Source: a virus (taxonomy: Duplodnaviria > Caudoviricetes). From it: a stretch of DNA of 28,647 nt. Below, in pieces: positions 6,953 to 25,034 of this stretch. The notes below the pieces were generated by a model that worked only from the letters and a program-made list of their open reading frames with translations, ran no database searches and had not been told where the DNA came from. Both the position numbers and the translations under genes were made by a program. The stretch's first letter is position 1, and each line of letters opens with the position of its first letter. The stretch spans positions 1-28,647 of the IMG/VR virus record IMGVR_UViG_3300036833_000104; one strand, given 5' to 3'.

Positions 6953-8665
6953 ATGCTGCGCATCCCTCACAACCCGGTCGATTTTGTAACCTGGGTGAAA
7001 GAGCTGGCAGACGAGTGCATGGCCAGCGCAGAGGAGCGCGGGATGGTCTACACTCGCGCTGGCGCGTACTACTACAGCGGAACCTACGACAATCGCGCCG
7101 CTATCTACAACAAGATCAAGCCGTTCATCGACAAGCTGGCTGGATTCCTGATGCAGCCAACTGACGTGCGGTACCAGATCGTTTTTGATTCGACCGAAGA
7201 AGAAAACATGCTCGACCGTGCGCAGGTCGTGTCGGAGAAATTGACAGCGGACTATCGCCAGACTGACTCAGACATCACCTTTGCCGAGTCTGTGGTGTGG
7301 GCTCTGGTGAACGGCGCGTATTTGCTCAAGCATGTACCGGACCACGAGGGTTTCAAGATCGCGCCGGTTCATCCGCAGAATTTCGGTGTGCTGAATGAAA
7401 CGATTCTCAGCTTGGACGAGCAGGAGGCGTTTTGCCACGTCTCCTATCCGAGCTTATCCCGACTGCGTTCGATGCTGCGAGAAGCGAAACACCCGGACGC
7501 GAATAAAATTATCGCGCGCTTGGAGCAAGAAGCGAGGCGCACCACCAAACAGGACGAGGAACCAACTTATTTCCATCAAATGGTTGTCGGTGGGCTGCAG
7601 CCGCTGGGCAATGTCAACGATGCGCCCTCGTCAGCTGCCGGTATCGTCAACGTGTTTCCCACGCCTGTGCCCTGGCGGCCTAACCGTAGGCTGGCCCCGA
7701 CCGTCAAACACTGCGAGCTGTGGGTCAAGGACCAGGACCACGAGGGCGACTACACCACCATCCAATTTGTCTACCCTGACATCGTTCTGGAAGGCCAAGA
7801 CACTCGGCGCAATCTGTCGCGCATCCCAGGACGACATCCGTTTGTGAAGGTTCAGGGTCAGACAACTCCCGGCTATTTCTGGGGACGCTCGCTGGTTGCC
7901 GACGTGCAAATGCTGCAGGACTTGCTGAACAAGCGGCTGCGCGACCTCAAGATATTGTGGGATCGCAACGTCGCAGCTCCGCAAGTGTTGTCCGGTTTCA
8001 CGAGCATAACCGAGGAGCAGTATTTCAAGATCATCAACGAGGGTGGCTTTCTCAACGATCCGAATCCAAATGCCAAATCTCAGAAGCTGCTTGACCCACC
8101 GCCTGAGAACTACCTTGAGGAGCTGGAGTTCATCTGGAAAATGTTTGATGAGGCTTCCGGGTTCAGCCCCATCATGTCTGGACAGGGCGAGCCCGGTGTC
8201 CGGGCTGGCGTTCATGCGCAAACCTTGGTGCGAACATCGTCACCCCGACTGATCGACCAAGCGGCGCGTATCGAGCGCCAGCTCGCCGAGAGCGGCTACC
8301 TTTCGCTGCGACTCATGCAGGCGCAGGATGCTTTCATCTACAAGACTGACAAGGGAACGGAGTTTCTGCTCAGTGATCTCGCCGACAATTTCCAGGTTCA
8401 GGTGGACAGCCATAGTGCGTCGCCCGCTTTCGCCGAGGATAACCGTCAGGTGGCCATTGCTCTTGCACGCGCAAACGCGATTGACTCCGAGGACCTTATC
8501 CACATGCTGCATCCGCCTGGAGCCGAATTGCTGCTTGCAAGATTGCGGCAGCGCCAGAAGGATCAGGCAAAGGCCGCACAGCAGGAAAAACAGGAGGGCT
8601 TGATTCGGGACGTGCTGCATCTGCCAGAACGTGGTCGTTCCCAGGCTGGACGCAAGCGCAAGTAA
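6953..8665 (+). CDS. Portal protein
   Basis: 570 aa following terL. HPFVK...GYFWGRSLVADVQMLQDLLNKRL resembles the portal stem/clip region. Coiled-coil C-terminus. Confidence 0.85.
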   Translation: MLRIPHNPVDFVTWVKELADECMASAEERGMVYTRAGAYYYSGTYDNRAAIYNKIKPFIDKLAGFLMQPTDVRYQIVFDSTEEENMLDRAQVVSEKLTADYRQTDSDITFAESVVWALVNGAYLLKHVPDHEGFKIAPVHPQNFGVLNETILSLDEQEAFCHVSYPSLSRLRSMLREAKHPDANKIIARLEQEARRTTKQDEEPTYFHQMVVGGLQPLGNVNDAPSSAAGIVNVFPTPVPWRPNRRLAPTVKHCELWVKDQDHEGDYTTIQFVYPDIVLEGQDTRRNLSRIPGRHPFVKVQGQTTPGYFWGRSLVADVQMLQDLLNKRLRDLKILWDRNVAAPQVLSGFTSITEEQYFKIINEGGFLNDPNPNAKSQKLLDPPPENYLEELEFIWKMFDEASGFSPIMSGQGEPGVRAGVHAQTLVRTSSPRLIDQAARIERQLAESGYLSLRLMQAQDAFIYKTDKGTEFLLSDLADNFQVQVDSHSASPAFAEDNRQVAIALARANAIDSEDLIHMLHPPGAELLLARLRQRQKDQAKAAQQEKQEGLIRDVLHLPERGRSQAGRKRK

Positions 8666-8705
8666 GGGTGTAGCTTTCCCAGCCGCGACACTCCGGGGTA
8701 GCAGA

Positions 8706-9233
<528 letters not shown>

Positions 9234-11453: not shown

Positions 11454-12236
11454 GTGCCCGTTGTCATTACCAGCGTTAGTCCAAGCTCGGGTCCGCCAGC
11501 TGGCGGCACCCCGGTAACCATCACCGGAACTGGCTTTACCGGCGCGACTGTCGTTGACTTCGGCGCTACCCCGGCAACCAATGTGGTTGTGGTCAGCGAT
11601 ACCTCGATCACAGCAGATACGCCGGTGGCGACTCAAGATGGTCATGTGAGCGTGTCCGTCACTTCGCCAAGCGGCACCGGCACGCTACCGAATGGCTTTC
11701 TCTACGGCGGGGCGACCGGGCCGGTCGATGTGTTCCCTGCCTTCACGCCGATTGTTCCCCCTCCGGTGTTTGGTCTAGGAGGTGGCCCGCCGCCAACTTT
11801 CCCGCCGCCAACGCCGCCGCCGATTGGTGCGATCCCACCGGGCGTGCTGGTCGGACCAGCCATAGCGGCGGCTGCGGTTCCACCTTCGGTGGCTGGCCGA
11901 CCGCTGATTAGCTACAAGAGCGGCAGCGCAACCGTGCCTGCGGCAGCAAATATGGTTCCAGCCTTCACCACGGTATTCCCCAAGCCACCTATCGTCTTTT
12001 CCAACATCTTTACCGATGGGGCCTCTCCGGTCGTGCCCCCTTCCACGGCGACAACGCAAAATGTGCCGGTCGGCGGTTGGGGTCCGCCGCAAGGACCAGC
12101 TTTCCCACCCCCGAGCTTCACGCTTCCAGCTGCAGCCGCCGCAATGGGCGAGCTGCGCGGGGGCTCGGTCCTGGGGGACGGTATCTCACCGGTGATGGAG
12201 GAGCCGCCGCACAGGCGCAAGACGCGTCGCCGATAG
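11454..12236 (+). CDS. IPT/TIG (Ig-like) domain protein with Pro-rich tail, probable virion decoration
   Basis: PVVITSVSPSSGPPAGGTPVTITGTGFTGATVVDFG...VVSDTSITADTP...VSVTSPSGT is a canonical IPT/TIG pattern. SD GGAGG. Confidence 0.9.
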   Translation: MPVVITSVSPSSGPPAGGTPVTITGTGFTGATVVDFGATPATNVVVVSDTSITADTPVATQDGHVSVSVTSPSGTGTLPNGFLYGGATGPVDVFPAFTPIVPPPVFGLGGGPPPTFPPPTPPPIGAIPPGVLVGPAIAAAAVPPSVAGRPLISYKSGSATVPAAANMVPAFTTVFPKPPIVFSNIFTDGASPVVPPSTATTQNVPVGGWGPPQGPAFPPPSFTLPAAAAAMGELRGGSVLGDGISPVMEEPPHRRKTRRR

Positions 12237-12995: not shown

Positions 12996-13421
12996 GTGGT
13001 TCAGCCAATATGCCCTCTCTCTGGCCGTCCCTGCCCGCACAAGCTGCTTGTGAACGGCCCGGTGCGCCAGCGCATTGTCGATGTGCTTGCGAGCAGGCCG
13101 CATGGCATCACGCGGGACCAGCTGATCTGGTTAGTCTATGGTGACGATCCCAATGGCGGGCCGGATAGTCCAAACACGATCTGCGTTCTAATCTGGCACA
13201 CCAACAAGCAGCTGCGTCCGCAGGGCTACGAGATTGCAGCCACTCGCGGGCGCGGATCGCTCTACCGTTTGTGGAGATACGATGTCAACACAGAGCGCAA
13301 ACCCGCCCGAGATCATAACTCTGCAGCTGTGGAGGGGGCTAAACCAGCAAGTCCCGCGCGGCTCGATAGACGATCAAGAACTCTTTTGGCAAGAAAACTT
13401 GTACTCAATCGGACCGGGTAG
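12996..13421 (+). CDS. OmpR/PhoB-type winged-helix DNA-binding protein (no receiver domain)
   Basis: IVDVLASRPHGITRDQLIWLVYGDD...NTICVLIWHTNKQLR...IAATRGRGSLYRL matches the Trans_reg_C pattern. SD GGAG. Confidence 0.7.
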   Translation: MVQPICPLSGRPCPHKLLVNGPVRQRIVDVLASRPHGITRDQLIWLVYGDDPNGGPDSPNTICVLIWHTNKQLRPQGYEIAATRGRGSLYRLWRYDVNTERKPARDHNSAAVEGAKPASPARLDRRSRTLLARKLVLNRTG

Positions 13422-15183
13422 CCTGCGCTCCTGCTGGGGTCCTTCCGCGCCGATTTACACTGCGCCAGCTGGCACGAGCATTCTGCGCATCTTCTTCGGA
13501 TACTACGGCAAGAACACGTCGCAGTTCGCCGCGCCGCCGCCTGGGCGCATGGGTTGGATGATGCTGTCCGATGGCAACGTCGATGAGGTTGATCTCGACA
13601 CAGCTGCAGTGACTCGCATCGGGGTAGTCTGGAATCCCGTTGCACCAAACTACTGGGCCTCGATCAAGGTTTGGCGACCCCAATGGCTTGGTGCTGCAAC
13701 CCTCAGCGTCACAGCGGCAGCCGCCGCAGCTGGCGGCTCCGGTTATGTTGCCAACGACACGATCACTCTCGGCAATGGAGTTGTCGTCACGGTCGCCACT
13801 CTCACGGCTGGTGCTGTTGCCACTGTCACGATCACAAACGGAGGCAGTATCTCGGCGACGACGACACCTCCTGCAAATCCGGTAGCACAAGTCTCAACCA
13901 GCGGTGCCGGCACTGGGGCGACATTCAATCTAACCTGGACCGCAGTGGGCGGAAGCGGGATAGGCCAGCAGGGCGGCATAGTCATCGGGTCGCCAAGGGG
14001 CCTTTACGCCTGGGACGGTACGACACTCTCATCGCCCGGTGATCCTTCGCCCGAATGGTTGAGCAATGAAGTCCCCGGCGTCGATCCGATCTCGCCGATG
14101 CCGCAGGGCTTGCCCGGTATCTATTGCATGGAGGTCTACAACGAGCGGCTATGGGTTGCCGGCAAGAACGTCATCAGCTTCTCGGCTCCAAGCAACGGCG
14201 CGAATTTCTCGACCACGCTCGGCGGTGGCAGCTTCGGCTACTACGGAGACAAGCTGACCTACGCCTACATGGACCTCGCCGCGAACGCTGGCTACATGTA
14301 CGTTTTCGGCGACAGCTCCACAGACATCATCAGCAACCTGCAATTCTCCGGGGCGGGCAGTCCTACTTCGCCGTTCACTACGAATTTCACCTACTCGAAT
14401 CTCGATCCTATGGTGGGACACGGATTCCCACGCCCGGTCGGTCGCTGGGGCCGCTATTTCGTGATGTGCAATGGCGATCCGCGCAACGGCGCGGAAACCG
14501 ACCCGCAGGCCGGTCGTGGTGGCATCTATGAAATGACAGGCGCTGATGCGCAGCTGATCAGCCAGAAGGTGACGAGCATCTACACGACGCTCGACGCCAG
14601 CACGTTTATGCCGACGTTCTGCGAAATGACGATGTTCGGATTTCGCATCTTGCTGCTCAACGGGATGTTCACCGATCCGTGGAAACGTAAGCGGCCGATG
14701 CTGTTGGCTTGGAACGGCGAGCAGTGGTGCGTTATGAGTCAGACCTACAATCTCACGCAGATCGGCTGCTACGAGGACAACAGCGTCATCATCCCTTACG
14801 GTACGGATGGCACAAGTCTCTACCGATTGTTCAATCAACCGGACGCCGCGCTGGTCAAACGATTCTCGACCAAAAGGTTGCGCGGCACTGGACCGGCAAT
14901 GCTCACGATCAAAAACTGGAAACGGCTGTTCCTTGAGTTCACCGACATCTTCGGCGGCGGTGTTTCGCTTACCGGCAGCATCACGGCAGGCGGCGGCGGT
15001 GTTCCGGGTGGCACGCAGGATATTGGTTTCCAGCTTACTCGAGGAGTCGCCGACTCAATCGAGCCACAGCCGATTGAGGCTTCGGGCATCTGGGCGGGTA
15101 TTGACCTTGAGAGCGTTTCGCCTGATTTTATCATCGAGCGGCTACACGTAGCCGCTGACGAGCGCACCCTGTTTGGGGCGTAA
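13282..15183 (+). CDS. Tail nozzle / tail tubular protein B-like (P22 gp10/T7 gp12 position)
   Basis: ATG 13282 after GGAG. About 633 aa, beta-rich. N-terminal WRGLN...ENL and internal YNERLWVAG...FS. Confidence 0.7.
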   Translation: MSTQSANPPEIITLQLWRGLNQQVPRGSIDDQELFWQENLYSIGPGSLRSCWGPSAPIYTAPAGTSILRIFFGYYGKNTSQFAAPPPGRMGWMMLSDGNVDEVDLDTAAVTRIGVVWNPVAPNYWASIKVWRPQWLGAATLSVTAAAAAAGGSGYVANDTITLGNGVVVTVATLTAGAVATVTITNGGSISATTTPPANPVAQVSTSGAGTGATFNLTWTAVGGSGIGQQGGIVIGSPRGLYAWDGTTLSSPGDPSPEWLSNEVPGVDPISPMPQGLPGIYCMEVYNERLWVAGKNVISFSAPSNGANFSTTLGGGSFGYYGDKLTYAYMDLAANAGYMYVFGDSSTDIISNLQFSGAGSPTSPFTTNFTYSNLDPMVGHGFPRPVGRWGRYFVMCNGDPRNGAETDPQAGRGGIYEMTGADAQLISQKVTSIYTTLDASTFMPTFCEMTMFGFRILLLNGMFTDPWKRKRPMLLAWNGEQWCVMSQTYNLTQIGCYEDNSVIIPYGTDGTSLYRLFNQPDAALVKRFSTKRLRGTGPAMLTIKNWKRLFLEFTDIFGGGVSLTGSITAGGGGVPGGTQDIGFQLTRGVADSIEPQPIEASGIWAGIDLESVSPDFIIERLHVAADERTLFGA

Positions 15184-15213: not shown

Positions 15214-15288
15214 ATGGCAAGACGCCGTAGCCGCAGACTGAGAATGACACGACGCGCACGTCGTATCCGTGCGCGGCGTCGTCGTTAA
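15214..15288 (+). CDS. Protamine-like Arg-rich peptide 1 (24 aa)
   Basis: MARRRSRRLRMTRRARRIRARRRR (15 Arg). SD GAGGAG at 15199-15204. Confidence 0.75.
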   Translation: MARRRSRRLRMTRRARRIRARRRR

Positions 15289-15327
15289 ACCGGGGACAGG
15301 TTTTGTCCTCAAACAGGGAGCCATGTC

Positions 15328-15393
15328 ATGGCACGAAGAGGACGTAAGGCCCGCAGGCGCGGTGGTCGCAGGCGGCGCGGACGGAGACGGTAA
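15328..15393 (+). CDS. Protamine-like Arg/Gly-rich peptide 2 (21 aa)
   Basis: MARRGRKARRRGGRRRRGRRR (13 Arg). SD AGGGAG and TAATG coupling to the next ORF. Confidence 0.75.
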   Translation: MARRGRKARRRGGRRRRGRRR

Positions 15394-15572
15394 TGCCTGC
15401 TCCGCGTATTGGATCAGCGTTCAACAATGCGCGGAATCTGAGAAGGCAGGCTAATCCCCTCAGACCGGGGGATGCGCGGCCGTTCAAACCCGTCGTCCCC
15501 CGACCCAATTCATATCGCAAGGGACCGCACATGTCGTCCCGCGCGACGATGCGCAAAATGCGGAGGCTTTGA
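15393..15572 (+). CDS. Small basic protein 3 (59 aa)
   Basis: MPAPRIGSAFNNARNLRRQANPLRPGDARPFKPVVPRPNSYRKGPHMSSRATMRKMRRL. Coupled on both sides (TAATG, TGATG). Confidence 0.65.
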   Translation: MPAPRIGSAFNNARNLRRQANPLRPGDARPFKPVVPRPNSYRKGPHMSSRATMRKMRRL

Positions 15573-15748
15573 TGGCAAGAGACACCGATCTCGGGCCGCG
15601 CAGCCGCGTGGACCCGGCTGGGCGAATGGGAACCCGTCGCCCGAGAACCGAGGTGCCTGCCTCGCGAACTCGCGCCACCTACGCCAGAGACTGCAGCCCA
15701 CACGGCGGCGGTCAACGGTATCGGCGCTCGCGGCGAGGAGGCAGGTAG
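15572..15748 (+). CDS. Small basic protein 4 (58 aa)
   Basis: MARDTDLGPRSRVDPAGRMGTRRPRTEVPASRTRATYARDCSPHGGGQRYRRSRRGGR. SD GGAGG. Confidence 0.65.
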   Translation: MARDTDLGPRSRVDPAGRMGTRRPRTEVPASRTRATYARDCSPHGGGQRYRRSRRGGR

Positions 15749-15750
15749 TG

Positions 15751-15873
15751 ATGGCTCGTATCCGAGGAATCCGCCGACCAAGCAGACGCTTCGGTTTACG
15801 AGCGCCTTACCGGCGCGGGCGCTCGCCGCGCATCGGAGGGCGAACCGGCCCGGTAAGGGGTGCGAGGCGGTGA
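15751..15873 (+). CDS. Arg-rich peptide 5 (40 aa)
   Basis: MARIRGIRRPSRRFGLRAPYRRGRSPRIGGRTGPVRGARR (15 Arg, no acidic residues). SD GAGGAGG. Confidence 0.7.
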   Translation: MARIRGIRRPSRRFGLRAPYRRGRSPRIGGRTGPVRGARR

Positions 15874-16346
15874 CGACTCGCATCATTCGCGGACCCAAAG
15901 AGGACCAGCTGCATGTGGCAGTAGCGCAGCTGCTCGACTGGATTCTGCTACCGCCTGCTTTCTACACGACGTTCCCGGCTGGCTGGGGAGTGCTTAGCCC
16001 GATGATGGCTCAGCGACTCAAGAAAAGCGGCTTGAAGCCAGGGATGCCCGACATGCTGCTGTTCTACGAAGAACGGTGCTATGGCATCGAATTGAAGACA
16101 GGCAAGAACGCCGTCTCGCCCGATCAGAAAGAGACCATCCGCAGATTGGGATATGCTGGCGTCCCAGTCTGGGTCTGTCGAAGCGTCGAGGAGGTTATTG
16201 ACGTGCTCCGCGTCATCAAACTCCCGATGCGACCGCTAGCAGGAGTTGGTCAATGGCAACCAAACATCAACGAGCTGCCGCTCGGCGTAACCTCCGCAAA
16301 GCGCGCCGACATCGGCGCAAAGGGAGGCGCTAATGGCACAGCATGA
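15870..16346 (+). CDS. VRR-NUC (PD-(D/E)XK) nuclease
   Basis: E..L...V, GLKPGMPDMLL, IELKT, SPDQKE, G.PV.VCRSVEEV. Confidence 0.85.
   Translation: MTTRIIRGPKEDQLHVAVAQLLDWILLPPAFYTTFPAGWGVLSPMMAQRLKKSGLKPGMPDMLLFYEERCYGIELKTGKNAVSPDQKETIRRLGYAGVPVWVCRSVEEVIDVLRVIKLPMRPLAGVGQWQPNINELPLGVTSAKRADIGAKGGANGTA
16253..16333 (+). CDS. Arg/Lys-rich peptide 6 (26 aa), nested out of frame in the 3' end of VRR-NUC
   Basis: MATKHQRAAARRNLRKARRHRRKGRR. SD AGGAG at 16241 and TAATG coupling to 16333. Confidence 0.7.
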   Translation: MATKHQRAAARRNLRKARRHRRKGRR

Positions 16347-16629
16347 AGGGAAGCAAGGCGAATGGCCGAGGGTGAGAGGGAATCCAACGGGCTACTTTCA
16401 GCACCCGGACGGGATTCTGAAATCCACTCGCTCACTCGCAGGGCCTTTGCGTTTGGGAACAGAGGACCGCGTAGGGCCAAAAGGGTTTCTAAAGGACGGC
16501 AACGCATCCGACTACGGCATGGATCGCGTCACGCCGCGCGGGTTTGACCCGATCGGTTCGCACAACGACCGAGCGCCGAATCAGGAAGCCTCGTCGCTGC
16601 TGTCGCGTGAAAGCCGTCGATCCGAATAA
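16333..16629 (+). CDS. Hypothetical protein
   Basis: SD GGGAGG, 98 aa. Confidence 0.7.
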   Translation: MAQHEGKQGEWPRVRGNPTGYFQHPDGILKSTRSLAGPLRLGTEDRVGPKGFLKDGNASDYGMDRVTPRGFDPIGSHNDRAPNQEASSLLSRESRRSE

Positions 16630-16632
16630 CGG

Positions 16633-17037
16633 ATGTCCACTGCGTCGTTGCTGGCGATGCCCGCCGATCCTGCTCAGCGAACCATGTTCTGGTTCGAGGA
16701 AGCAATGACGCACAGGCGTCAGCTCGGGGCTATGTCTCCGCTCAACCGCTTTTCGGTGTTACCGTATTTCATCGACCCCTTCCGTCCGAATACGATGTGG
16801 CTGCTCACGCACCAGCAGGCGCAGAACGATGCAAACACGACAATGCCGACTTGGAACGAGGCACCCCCGCCTGCCTACCCTGGCACATTGGTGACCAGTG
16901 TTCCTGAGACACAGAATTTGATAGATATCAATTTGAATGACCGAAGGCAGCGTGCATGGTGGACCTTCGCGAACCATCGAGAGCAGCTGATAGCGATGGA
17001 TACGTTGCCGCCAGTGCTGACCTTCCCGTTCTGGTGA
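16633..17037 (+). CDS. Hypothetical virion-module protein
   Basis: 134 aa, Trp/His-rich, GTGA coupling to the next gene. Confidence 0.75.
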   Translation: MSTASLLAMPADPAQRTMFWFEEAMTHRRQLGAMSPLNRFSVLPYFIDPFRPNTMWLLTHQQAQNDANTTMPTWNEAPPPAYPGTLVTSVPETQNLIDINLNDRRQRAWWTFANHREQLIAMDTLPPVLTFPFW

Positions 17038-17447
17038 GGTTGCTGGTCGAGGACGATCTCCCCTGGCTGCACTATCTTTTCGGCAAGCGGTATCCGTCGC
17101 ACTATGATCAGGCGACTACTGAGCGGTGGTTCCGCATCGTCGTGGTTAAAGACGCGCTGAACACCTACGCGGCGCGCACTGACGATGCGTTCCTGGTGGC
17201 GCTCACAGCTGTGCTGCCGTGGATTCCTGGCGAGCCAGAGGTCAACGTCGTAGGTATCTGCGCCGAGGAAAATTGCAGCTGGCAGGTTGTCAAACTGCTT
17301 CGGTCGTCCATCGACTGGGCACGGAAACGCAACGCCGCGCGCTGGCGCATCAACACTGACACGGCTTATGATGTTGGAGCGTTGGCGTTGCGTGTAGGAG
17401 CGCGCGAGATCAGCCCGCGGTTTGAGATTGATCTCAGAGGAGGCTGA
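17034..17447 (+). CDS. GNAT-fold-like protein (position of T7 gp13-like genes)
   Basis: VRLLVEDDLPWL N-terminus and LLRSSIDWARKRNA...LALRVGA, a GNAT-like pattern. Lies just before the ejection proteins. Confidence 0.55.
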   Translation: MRLLVEDDLPWLHYLFGKRYPSHYDQATTERWFRIVVVKDALNTYAARTDDAFLVALTAVLPWIPGEPEVNVVGICAEENCSWQVVKLLRSSIDWARKRNAARWRINTDTAYDVGALALRVGAREISPRFEIDLRGG

Positions 17448-24446: not shown

Positions 24447-25034
24447 TCACCGCCGTGCTTGTTGCGGCGGTGGCGTTGATGGCGCCGGAGTCGGTGCATT
24501 TGGAACGCCGATGACGACCCATCCAGTACTCGGGCTCCAGCCAATCTTCCACTCGATCAGTTTCTGCCGCTCTCCTGGCGGGAGGGCAATCGGAGGCGTC
24601 GGAAAGCCAGGGTAGGGACCCCAGATGCCCAGCGGCGGCACCGGCGGCAGCACGATCGGATGCGCTGGCACCCCCGGCGAGATCGCATCCGGCGGCAGCA
24701 CGATCGGATGGGCCGGAACGCCTGGGGACGGCCAAATCTCTGGCGGCAGGACAATCGGATGGGTCGGGACGTCCGGTGCAATCGCGCCCGGTGGGATCAC
24801 TATCGGATGCGCGGGGTAGACCGGGATGTAGATCGGATGCGCTGGCACCCCCGGCGAGATCGCATCCGGCGGCAGCACGATTGGATGGGCTGGACCCCCG
24901 CCCGGTGCAATTGGGTGCCCTGGATAACCCGGTCCAGGCCAGATACCGGGAGGCGGTCCACCGGGGGCGATGGGGTGTGTCGGAGCCCCGCCAGTGTTCA
25001 GCGGGGTGATGAGTGCGAGAAAAGCTTCGGTCAT
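24447..25034 (-). CDS. Pro-rich PxHPI-repeat protein
   Basis: Eight PxHPI motifs plus PTPPI. SD AGGAGG. C-terminal WKIGWSPSTGWVVIGVP. Confidence 0.85.
   Translation of the reverse strand: MTEAFLALITPLNTGGAPTHPIAPGGPPPGIWPGPGYPGHPIAPGGGPAHPIVLPPDAISPGVPAHPIYIPVYPAHPIVIPPGAIAPDVPTHPIVLPPEIWPSPGVPAHPIVLPPDAISPGVPAHPIVLPPVPPLGIWGPYPGFPTPPIALPPGERQKLIEWKIGWSPSTGWVVIGVPNAPTPAPSTPPPQQARR
24654..24881. repeat. 51-bp perfect direct repeat inside the PxHPI gene
   Basis: GATCGGATGCGCTGGCACCCCCGGCGAGATCGCATCCGGCGGCAGCACGAT at 24654-24704 and 24831-24881. Confidence 0.9.

What the first reader, a model, noticed from the sequence alone, without database searches (positions are those of the whole stretch)
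15214..16333. Hidden operon of six tiny Arg-rich, protamine-like genes in the virion module
Seen: the gap between the nozzle and ejection genes is tiled by ORFs of 24, 21, 59, 58, 40 and 26 aa, all below the ORF-track cutoff. Examples are MARRRSRRLRMTRRARRIRARRRR, MARRGRKARRRGGRRRRGRRR and MATKHQRAAARRNLRKARRHRRKGRR. Four start with MAR. Each has a strong SD and/or TAATG/TGATG coupling, and all six Arg codons are used, so this is not a DNA microsatellite. Known: Arg-rich genome-neutralising peptides exist in microviruses (J/VP8), baculoviruses (P6.9) and adenoviruses (VII, mu), whereas tailed phages are classically thought to rely on polyamines and cations. Inference: a multi-gene DNA condensation or charge-neutralisation system co-packaged in the capsid. 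Alternatively, the peptides could be co-ejected to shield DNA or act on membranes.
Basis: partly seen in the sequence, partly recalled or inferred. Interest (0 to 1): 0.85.

Follow-up and report, generated by a model that had tools for sequence, protein, structure and literature searches.

The report
Phage arginine micropeptide–resolvase cassette
This uncultured soil phage and its relatives carry a conserved run of tiny, strongly basic genes wrapped around a DNA-junction-cutting nuclease gene inside the virion operon, and more distant relatives keep 10–21-residue versions beside the portal gene; the peptides likely bind phage DNA during packaging and may enter the head, a protamine-like job my searches found no report of in tailed phages, but none of that has been tested.

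Summary
The six ORFs are real genes. All 89 of 89 non-redundant loci of this soil podophage clade (window included) carry 3–10 Arg-rich micro-ORFs behind the P22-gp10-like nozzle gene: 2.2 per kb against 0.06 elsewhere. They fall into ordered families with dN/dS 0.09–0.40, in frame only. The gap is not simply 'tiled': a VRR-NUC nuclease sits between ORF5 and ORF6, and 89 of 89 loci hold exactly one Holliday-junction-resolvase-class gene there, of three interchangeable types. Clades sharing about 40% capsid identity keep 1–3 basic 10–21-aa genes between portal and capsid genes instead (58 of 60; 47 of 50 loci). Best reading (about 0.5): late DNA-binding polycations that act with the resolvase at packaging and partly neutralise DNA in the head. 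Full protamine-style condensation is unlikely on charge arithmetic. A lysis role is unlikely. Expression, virion presence and DNA binding are untested, and no cultured member was found. No paper (six searches) and no earlier scan note on related DNA was found.

The parts
13282..15183 (+). Tail nozzle (P22 gp10-like); upstream anchor
   Evidence: AlphaFold model of the 91%-identical relative P0122 (pTM 0.77) matches podophage nozzles by Foldseek, best E 3e-13, P22 chain E 4e-10
15214..15288 (+). ORF1, 24 aa, net +15; family in 73 of 89 loci
   Evidence: dN/dS 0.15
15328..15393 (+). ORF2, 21 aa Arg/Gly peptide, net +14; likely counterpart of the portal-adjacent micropeptides of sister clades
   Evidence: Short peptides with >=45% Arg in 50 of 89 loci; 7 synonymous and 0 non-synonymous changes against L001; class scores above shuffles against outgroup peptides in 88% of 25
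15393..15572 (+). ORF3, 59 aa, Arg/Pro-rich, net +14; family called in 56 of 89 loci
   Evidence: dN/dS 0.27
15572..15748 (+). ORF4, 58 aa, net +11, conserved N-terminal Gly/Pro/Asp motif plus basic tail; family in 87 of 89 loci
   Evidence: dN/dS 0.26; 67 further unnamed or hypothetical homologues
15751..15873 (+). ORF5, 40 aa, net +15, conserved C-terminal Gly/Pro motif; family in 84 of 89 loci; stop overlaps the nuclease start
   Evidence: dN/dS 0.22
15870..16346 (+). VRR-NUC nuclease, Holliday-junction-resolvase class; slot filled in 89 of 89 loci by VRR-NUC (46), RuvC-like (28) or Hjc-like (15)
16253..16333 (+). ORF6, 26 aa, net +13, overprinted on the nuclease's 3' tail; family in 48 of 89 loci
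   Evidence: overlap also in 11 of 16 loci with both genes; dN/dS 0.17
16333..16629 (+). Conserved 98-aa Gly/Pro/Arg/Asp-rich protein, predicted mostly unstructured; downstream anchor, coupled to ORF6
   Evidence: alignment; pLDDT 55, pTM 0.22
16633..17037 (+). 134-aa conserved gene, no family match
16956..17447 (+). GNAT-like gene; follows the nozzle directly or nearly so in four cultured distant podophages
   Evidence: phrog_1249, E 0.004
8665..8709 (+). Empty portal-to-Gly/Pro-gene junction, where sister clades carry their basic micro-ORFs
   Evidence: the window's Gly/Pro gene hits the gene behind the micro-ORFs in 13 of 45 outgroup loci

Best explanation
The cassette is a conserved, selected set of short polycationic peptide genes plus one resolvase-class nuclease gene in the late virion operon, and it likely serves genome maturation: the nuclease would cut branches out of replicated DNA, while the peptides would bind that DNA and likely end up inside the head as partial counter-ions. 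Shown: the genes, their conservation, order, selection, location and the resolvase slot. Inferred: an ancestral one-to-three-gene basic micropeptide unit lay between portal and scaffold genes, moved behind the nozzle in this clade, and expanded to 3-10 genes of about 11 families. The plain Arg/Gly peptides would bind DNA without sequence specificity. The motif-bearing ones (ORF3-5) would use their conserved non-basic segments to dock on a head or motor protein, as microvirus J/VP8 does. Neutralisation would be partial or local, not protamine-style collapse.
For: 89 of 89 loci have the cluster; density 2.2/kb against 0.06/kb on the same strand elsewhere and 0.12/kb on the opposite strand. dN/dS 0.09-0.40 in 11 families; pN/pS 0.16-0.41 in frame against 1.3-6.3 in shifted frames for six families. 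Peptides are 33% Arg and 37% Arg+Lys, with 3.5% acidic residues. Exactly one resolvase-class gene in 89 of 89 gaps, of three mutually exclusive types, directly behind the ORF5-type gene in 71 of 84; T4 Endo VII releases packaging stalled on branched DNA (PMC10893049, passages); the close relative G001 encodes Erf-like and RecE-like recombination genes. Head-module position in sister clades: 58 of 60, 47 of 50, plus one phage each at L303 and L308; L077 has both positions. Precedents: VP8/J lines the capsid interior and binds DNA (PMC11281519, passages); T4 loads about 360 copies each of internal proteins (PMC9958956, passages).
Against: No expression, virion or DNA-binding data; no cultured member. 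Gene position is only guilt by association, and the resolvase, the firmest neighbour, is not usually a virion protein (own knowledge). One set carries +82 charges, so 12 copies each would cover 1%, 100 copies 10% and 415 copies 40% of a 42-kb genome. Strong polycations can stall packaging motors (recalled; not found). No J-like C-terminal aromatic anchor, capsid-targeting sequence or prohead protease was identified. The resolvase link is clade-specific: the three resolvase queries found no hit in 45 outgroup loci. In the freshwater clade a conserved -35 hexamer lies behind, not in front of, the micro-ORFs, so they need not share the capsid gene's transcript. Homology between the soil and outgroup peptides is weakly supported, since low-complexity peptides converge easily.
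Confidence: 0.5

Rival explanations
1. The peptides bind DNA only inside the cell: they compact or shield the replicated concatemer, or silence the host nucleoid late in infection, and are stripped off by the motor.
For: Tight coupling to a non-virion resolvase; the charge budget makes bulk encapsidation demanding; in some outgroups the micro-ORF looks like its own small unit, with a -35 hexamer upstream or hairpins downstream (read by eye).
Against: The ancestral position is between portal and scaffold genes across four or more capsid clades, where head components usually lie.
Confidence: 0.22
2. They are low-copy internal or tail-channel peptides ejected with the DNA, to help it cross the envelope or to shield its leading end from host nucleases.
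For: In this clade they lie between the nozzle and the presumed ejection genes; T4 IPI is injected and inhibits GmrSD (PMC9958956, passages).
Against: Sister clades place them far from tail and ejection genes; large hydrophobic residues are only 0-15% in the window's six.
Confidence: 0.12
3. They are RNA- or ribosome-binding effectors or regulators (Arg-rich-motif antiterminators, Pro/Arg-rich translation inhibitors).
For: ORF1 recalls Arg-rich RNA-binding helices and ORF3 recalls Pro/Arg-rich antimicrobial peptides (both recalled resemblances); a covarying pseudoknot lies between the two freshwater micro-ORFs.
Against: No family match in Pfam or NCBIfam. The pseudoknot model found nothing in the window or in the soil loci among 54 sources searched. 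A translation inhibitor co-expressed with capsid genes would harm the phage (inference).
Confidence: 0.1
4. They are disruptin-like cationic peptides that break the outer membrane at lysis.
For: Small and cationic like phiKT gp28 (bioRxiv 10.1101/515445, passages); no spanin family was matched among 63 ORFs scanned in two relatives (63 of 164 listed ORFs).
Against: gp28 is amphipathic and lies between endolysin and holin. Here the hydrophobic moment equals shuffled values for families 0, 2 and 7, though it is higher for 1, 4, 5 and 8. The endolysin of G001 lies more than 13 kb away on the other strand.
Confidence: 0.05
5. Spurious ORFs from high G+C content or a DNA repeat.
For: The loci are 55-67% G+C, which favours Arg codons.
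Against: the same kind of gene appears in a 44-49% G+C clade with third-position variation.
Confidence: 0.01

Closest known systems
Microvirus DNA-binding protein J / VP8 (phiX174, SpV4; PMC11281519)
   Same: Tiny Arg/Lys-rich phage peptide, separate gene beside capsid genes, basic segment plus a short conserved non-basic segment.
   Different: J/VP8 is one gene in an ssDNA T=1 virus and ends in a buried aromatic residue. Here there are 3-10 genes in a dsDNA terminase-packaging podophage, most ending in Arg; no sequence match.
Baculovirus P6.9 and adenovirus VII/mu core proteins (PMC5899202 abstract start; adenovirus recalled)
   Same: Protamine-like composition; ORF1 and ORF2 are 62% Arg.
   Different: Eukaryotic viruses with regulated phosphorylation or proteolysis; no kinase or protease partner was identified here; multi-gene and variable in number.
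T4 internal proteins IPI-III (PMC9958956)
   Same: Small proteins loaded into the prohead of a tailed phage at hundreds of copies; one is ejected to protect DNA.
   Different: They carry a cleaved capsid-targeting sequence and are larger; no such shared leader or protease was found here and there is no sequence match.
Packaging-associated Holliday-junction resolvases (T4 Endo VII; PMC10893049)
   Same: A resolvase-class gene expressed with morphogenesis genes.
   Different: Three unrelated nuclease types swap in one slot, coupled to a basic micropeptide gene.
phiKT gp28 disruptin (10.1101/515445)
   Same: Small cationic late phage peptide.
   Different: Amphipathic and inside the lysis cassette; these are hydrophilic and far from the endolysin.

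Membership tests
Microvirus J/VP8 | Short Arg/Lys-rich peptide from its own gene | tested here: met
Microvirus J/VP8 | C-terminal aromatic residue that anchors in the capsid protein | tested here: not met
   The window's six end in Arg (five) or Leu (one); defining feature from PMC11281519
Microvirus J/VP8 | ssDNA microvirus context | tested here: not met
   Terminase, portal, head protein and nozzle of a tailed phage
Viral protamine-like core proteins (J/VP8, P6.9, mu) as a working class | Present inside the virion, bound to the genome | not testable with these tools
   No virion data; no cultured member
Viral protamine-like core proteins as a working class | Sequence match to a curated family | tested here: not met
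   No Pfam or NCBIfam hit for the six; one weak PHROG hit of unknown function for ORF6 (E 0.002)
T4 internal proteins | Shared N-terminal capsid-targeting sequence cleaved by a prohead protease | tested here: inconclusive
   Met-Ala-Arg starts 262 of 574 peptides but no longer shared leader was seen; no protease among 32 window proteins scanned
Disruptin (phiKT gp28) | Location in the lysis cassette | tested here: not met
   Endolysin more than 13 kb away, opposite strand, in G001
Disruptin (phiKT gp28) | Amphipathic helix | tested here: inconclusive
   Moment at shuffle level in three families, above it in others; large hydrophobics 5-18%
Holliday-junction resolvase (15870-16346) | Profile match to a resolvase-class nuclease | tested here: met
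   PF08774 above cut-off; phrog_5702, E 1e-11
Holliday-junction resolvase (15870-16346) | Cleavage of four-way junctions | not testable with these tools
   Needs an assay
P22-like podophage nozzle (13282-15183) | gp10-type fold | tested here: met

The most novel reading that the evidence does not exclude
A large, uncultured podophage lineage of soils and fresh waters packages gene-encoded polycations inside its heads: protamines for a motor-packaged dsDNA phage, from 10-14-residue 'genetically encoded polyamines' in the freshwater clade to a modular set of up to ten peptides linked to a resolvase in the soil clade. They would be non-diffusible counter-ions that stabilise virions in low-salt habitats, and standard gene calling and tryptic proteomics would both miss them.
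Probability: 0.4. Interest if true: 0.9.

Novelty: new variant of a known kind. Interest (0 to 1): 0.76.

Why it matters
Tailed phages are generally taken to neutralise their pressurised DNA with ions and polyamines (own knowledge). A lineage-wide set of dedicated basic micropeptides would change that picture, and could be tested now with cheap synthetic peptides in DNA-compaction and in vitro packaging assays. Whatever their job, these are selected genes as short as 10-14 codons in an abundant lineage (about 1800 IMG/VR stretches for the freshwater clade alone) that the two GenBank records examined do not annotate, and the three-way swapping of resolvases in one slot defines a functional module.

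Tried and rejected
Complex prediction of capsid protein with ORF4 residues 1-45: no answer, score 0.00; no evidence either way. Sequencing runs: no RNA holder listed; contigs of three soil runs laid show only that a relative keeps the region, and the best run may be the source. ESM Atlas: nothing for ORF4; a weak DUF900 lead for the 98-aa protein below the recognition mark, not pursued. PDB sequence search with the nozzle profile: nothing. Rfam: no match in six sources. A sigma-70-like site at 15107-15134 scored 10 of 12, but 3 sites were found against 4.3 expected and only 11 of 89 loci score 9 or more there: rejected as a cluster promoter. The pseudoknot model hit 4 of 9 further freshwater loci and nothing in the window. 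Viral scans with P0256 gave no locus, so the lineage's edge is poorly sampled. Cultured distant podophages (Mx8, Mx9, BUCT555, ppBjS10J-1, Mwe-JY13, HP1): no SD-led free-standing basic micro-ORF seen by eye; one SD-less 25-codon frame overlaps the Mx9 portal end and HP1's record shows no clear head module. Literature: searches returned no description of this system; the library lacks most subscription papers, and supplements were not examined. The recalled motor-stalling result was not found. Microsatellite or G+C artefact: rejected. Earlier scan notes: none on related DNA.

Full report
Observation. The six ORFs are present at the stated coordinates and lengths. Each has an SD match of 4-6 nt; ORF2/3 and ORF3/4 overlap stop-to-start. 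Net charges are +15, +14, +14, +11, +15 and +13, and the 81 Arg residues use all six codons. In 1000 dinucleotide shuffles of the gap the same rule finds 0.85 ORFs on average and never six. Only ORF1 and ORF2 reach protamine-level Arg (62%); ORF3 has 20%.

Context. The window is a podophage fragment: terminase, portal, head protein and adaptor-like gene by PHROG. A model of the 91%-identical relative of the 13282-15183 protein matches P22 gp10-type nozzles. In Mx8, Mx9, BUCT555 and ppBjS10J-1 the corresponding gene is followed at once, or within 100 nt, by a GNAT gene; here the cassette and two more genes lie between. Runs holding the DNA are soil metagenomes. No cultured relative was found.

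Conservation in the clade. A nozzle profile fetched 163 loci; with L001 and the window that made 165. 147 had a complete nozzle end; I kept the 89 that also reached the 98-aa anchor gene and were not identical in the first 300 nt. They form 71 clusters at 90% and 47 at 80% nozzle identity, median pairwise 60%. All 89 have 3-10 SD-led or coupled ORFs with at least 20% Arg. At 30% Arg the density is 2.2 per kb in the gap, 0.12 on its reverse strand and 0.06 elsewhere. File-based clustering of 574 peptides gave 11 families: ORF4-type in 87 loci, ORF5-type 84, ORF1-type 73, ORF3-type 56, ORF6-type 48, six families absent from the window, and short Arg/Gly peptides in 50. A few members are misassigned (for example one row). 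Family order is largely fixed. dN/dS over nearest-neighbour pairs is 0.09-0.40; shifted frames give ratios above 1.2. These are protein-coding genes under selection for sequence, not only for charge.

The resolvase slot. Every one of the 89 gaps holds exactly one nuclease of resolvase class: VRR-NUC in 46, RuvC-like in 28, Hjc-like in 15, never two types (labels, where Pfam hits for the Hjc type are mostly below cut-off and the RuvC type rests on phrog_1770). In 71 of 84 it starts within 60 nt of the ORF5-type stop. Non-orthologous swapping in one slot argues that the function is needed there. T4 Endo VII releases packaging stalled at branches (PMC10893049, passages), and G001 encodes Erf-like and RecE-like proteins. 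Against generalising: these queries hit none of 45 long outgroup loci.

The wider lineage. Two Manatee Spring phages with 37% capsid identity lack a cluster behind the nozzle but carry two unannotated 13-codon Lys/Arg genes just after the portal. In their clade (about 1800 stretches, best 80 fetched), 58 of 60 non-redundant loci spanning portal to capsid have 1-3 such genes: 115 in 107 kb, none in 540 kb elsewhere on that strand, 3 on the reverse strand; variation falls at third positions. Two clades nearer the window (P0245, P0247; tree) have them in 47 of 50 loci, not dereplicated, nearly all 1.3-1.5 kb before the capsid gene; two of the three misses have no upstream DNA. Single phages from two outer branches also have one. 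In the soil clade that interval is mostly empty: 7 of 70 loci gave a hit and only L077's looks like a gene. The soil families that come first in the cluster score above shuffles against outgroup peptides, weak support for relocation followed by expansion.

Mechanism. Hydrophilic polycations in a late operon, ancestrally between portal and scaffold, and in this clade tied to a debranching enzyme, point to DNA at the packaging step. I put about 0.5 on action at packaging with entry into the head, 0.22 on intracellular DNA binding only, 0.12 on ejected helpers, 0.10 on RNA or ribosome targets and 0.05 on lysis. Arithmetic limits the claim: one set is +82, so 100 copies each would cover about 10% of a 42-kb genome and 415 copies 40%, taking some 12,800 nm3 beside 44,900 nm3 of DNA in an assumed 27-nm-radius cavity of 82,000 nm3. 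Partial or local neutralisation is feasible; protamine-style collapse is not likely, and polycation-induced motor stalling is recalled from the literature, not retrieved. How the peptides would be loaded is open: no targeting leader or protease was identified. Lysis is disfavoured because gp28 is amphipathic and sits in its lysis cassette (10.1101/515445, passages), while these peptides have few large hydrophobic residues and the endolysin is remote.

Comparison. It would work like microvirus J/VP8 (PMC11281519, passages) or baculovirus P6.9 (PMC5899202, listing and abstract start), but it is a member of neither: no sequence match, no C-terminal aromatic anchor, different virus class. T4 internal proteins show that a tailed phage can load hundreds of small proteins (PMC9958956, passages). 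Passages of the phi24B cryo-EM preprint (10.64898/2026.04.10.717836), a distant terminase relative, mention no such peptides; its proteomics was tryptic. PMC10450192 passages added nothing. Six searches found no paper on such genes in tailed phages; subscription papers and all supplements were unseen and could hold small-gene catalogues that list these families. Earlier scan notes concern Arg tags in giant viruses and one Arg-rich membrane protein of another phage; none concerns this lineage.

Verdict. Real, lineage-wide and apparently undescribed; function inferred, not shown. New variant of a known kind (viral basic genome-binding peptides) in a virus class where I found no report of it. Interest 0.76.

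Noticed in passing
L165:4815-4873 and 32 other freshwater-clade loci: Conserved H-type pseudoknot with compensatory changes (93% of cells paired, 37 double changes, 0 of 500 shuffles as high) just upstream of the second micro-ORF's ribosome-binding site; no Rfam match. It could be an autoregulatory operator or an mRNA stabiliser.
   Followed up: partly
MW202753.1 4740-5038 (L165) and L166:8246-8506: GenBank annotates opposite-strand hypothetical CDSs over the real 13-codon plus-strand micro-genes.
   Followed up: yes
L077:3860-4057: A divergent soil-clade member has a 65-aa Arg/Gly-rich gene in the head module as well as the nozzle-side cluster: a possible intermediate.
   Followed up: partly
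window 16333-16629: Highly conserved yet predicted unstructured Gly/Pro/Arg/Asp protein, of the kind that folds on a partner; may be a seventh member of the module.
   Followed up: partly
L029:9267-10868 and similar RuvC-type loci: A 360-560-aa Gly/Ala/Ser/Asp-rich low-complexity gene is inserted behind the RuvC-like gene; no Pfam or PHROG match.
   Followed up: no
7 of 89 gaps, e.g. L007:10305-10868, L056:9994-10428: HNH endonuclease genes insert into the peptide cluster.
   Followed up: no
window 8650-8665 and 12195-12236: The portal and the Ig-domain protein end in short basic tails.
   Followed up: no
window 13700-14000: The window's nozzle carries an insertion of about 85 aa, absent from the 91%-identical L001 protein, with weak matches to decoration or structural families.
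   Followed up: no
window 24447-25034 (-) and L016:10657-11232: Pro-rich repeat protein; a similar Pro-rich gene lies inside the cluster gap in L016.
   Followed up: no
L162, L163: Clade members are binned into Xanthobacteraceae and Caulobacteraceae MAGs: a weak hint of alphaproteobacterial hosts; bins may be contaminated.
   Followed up: no
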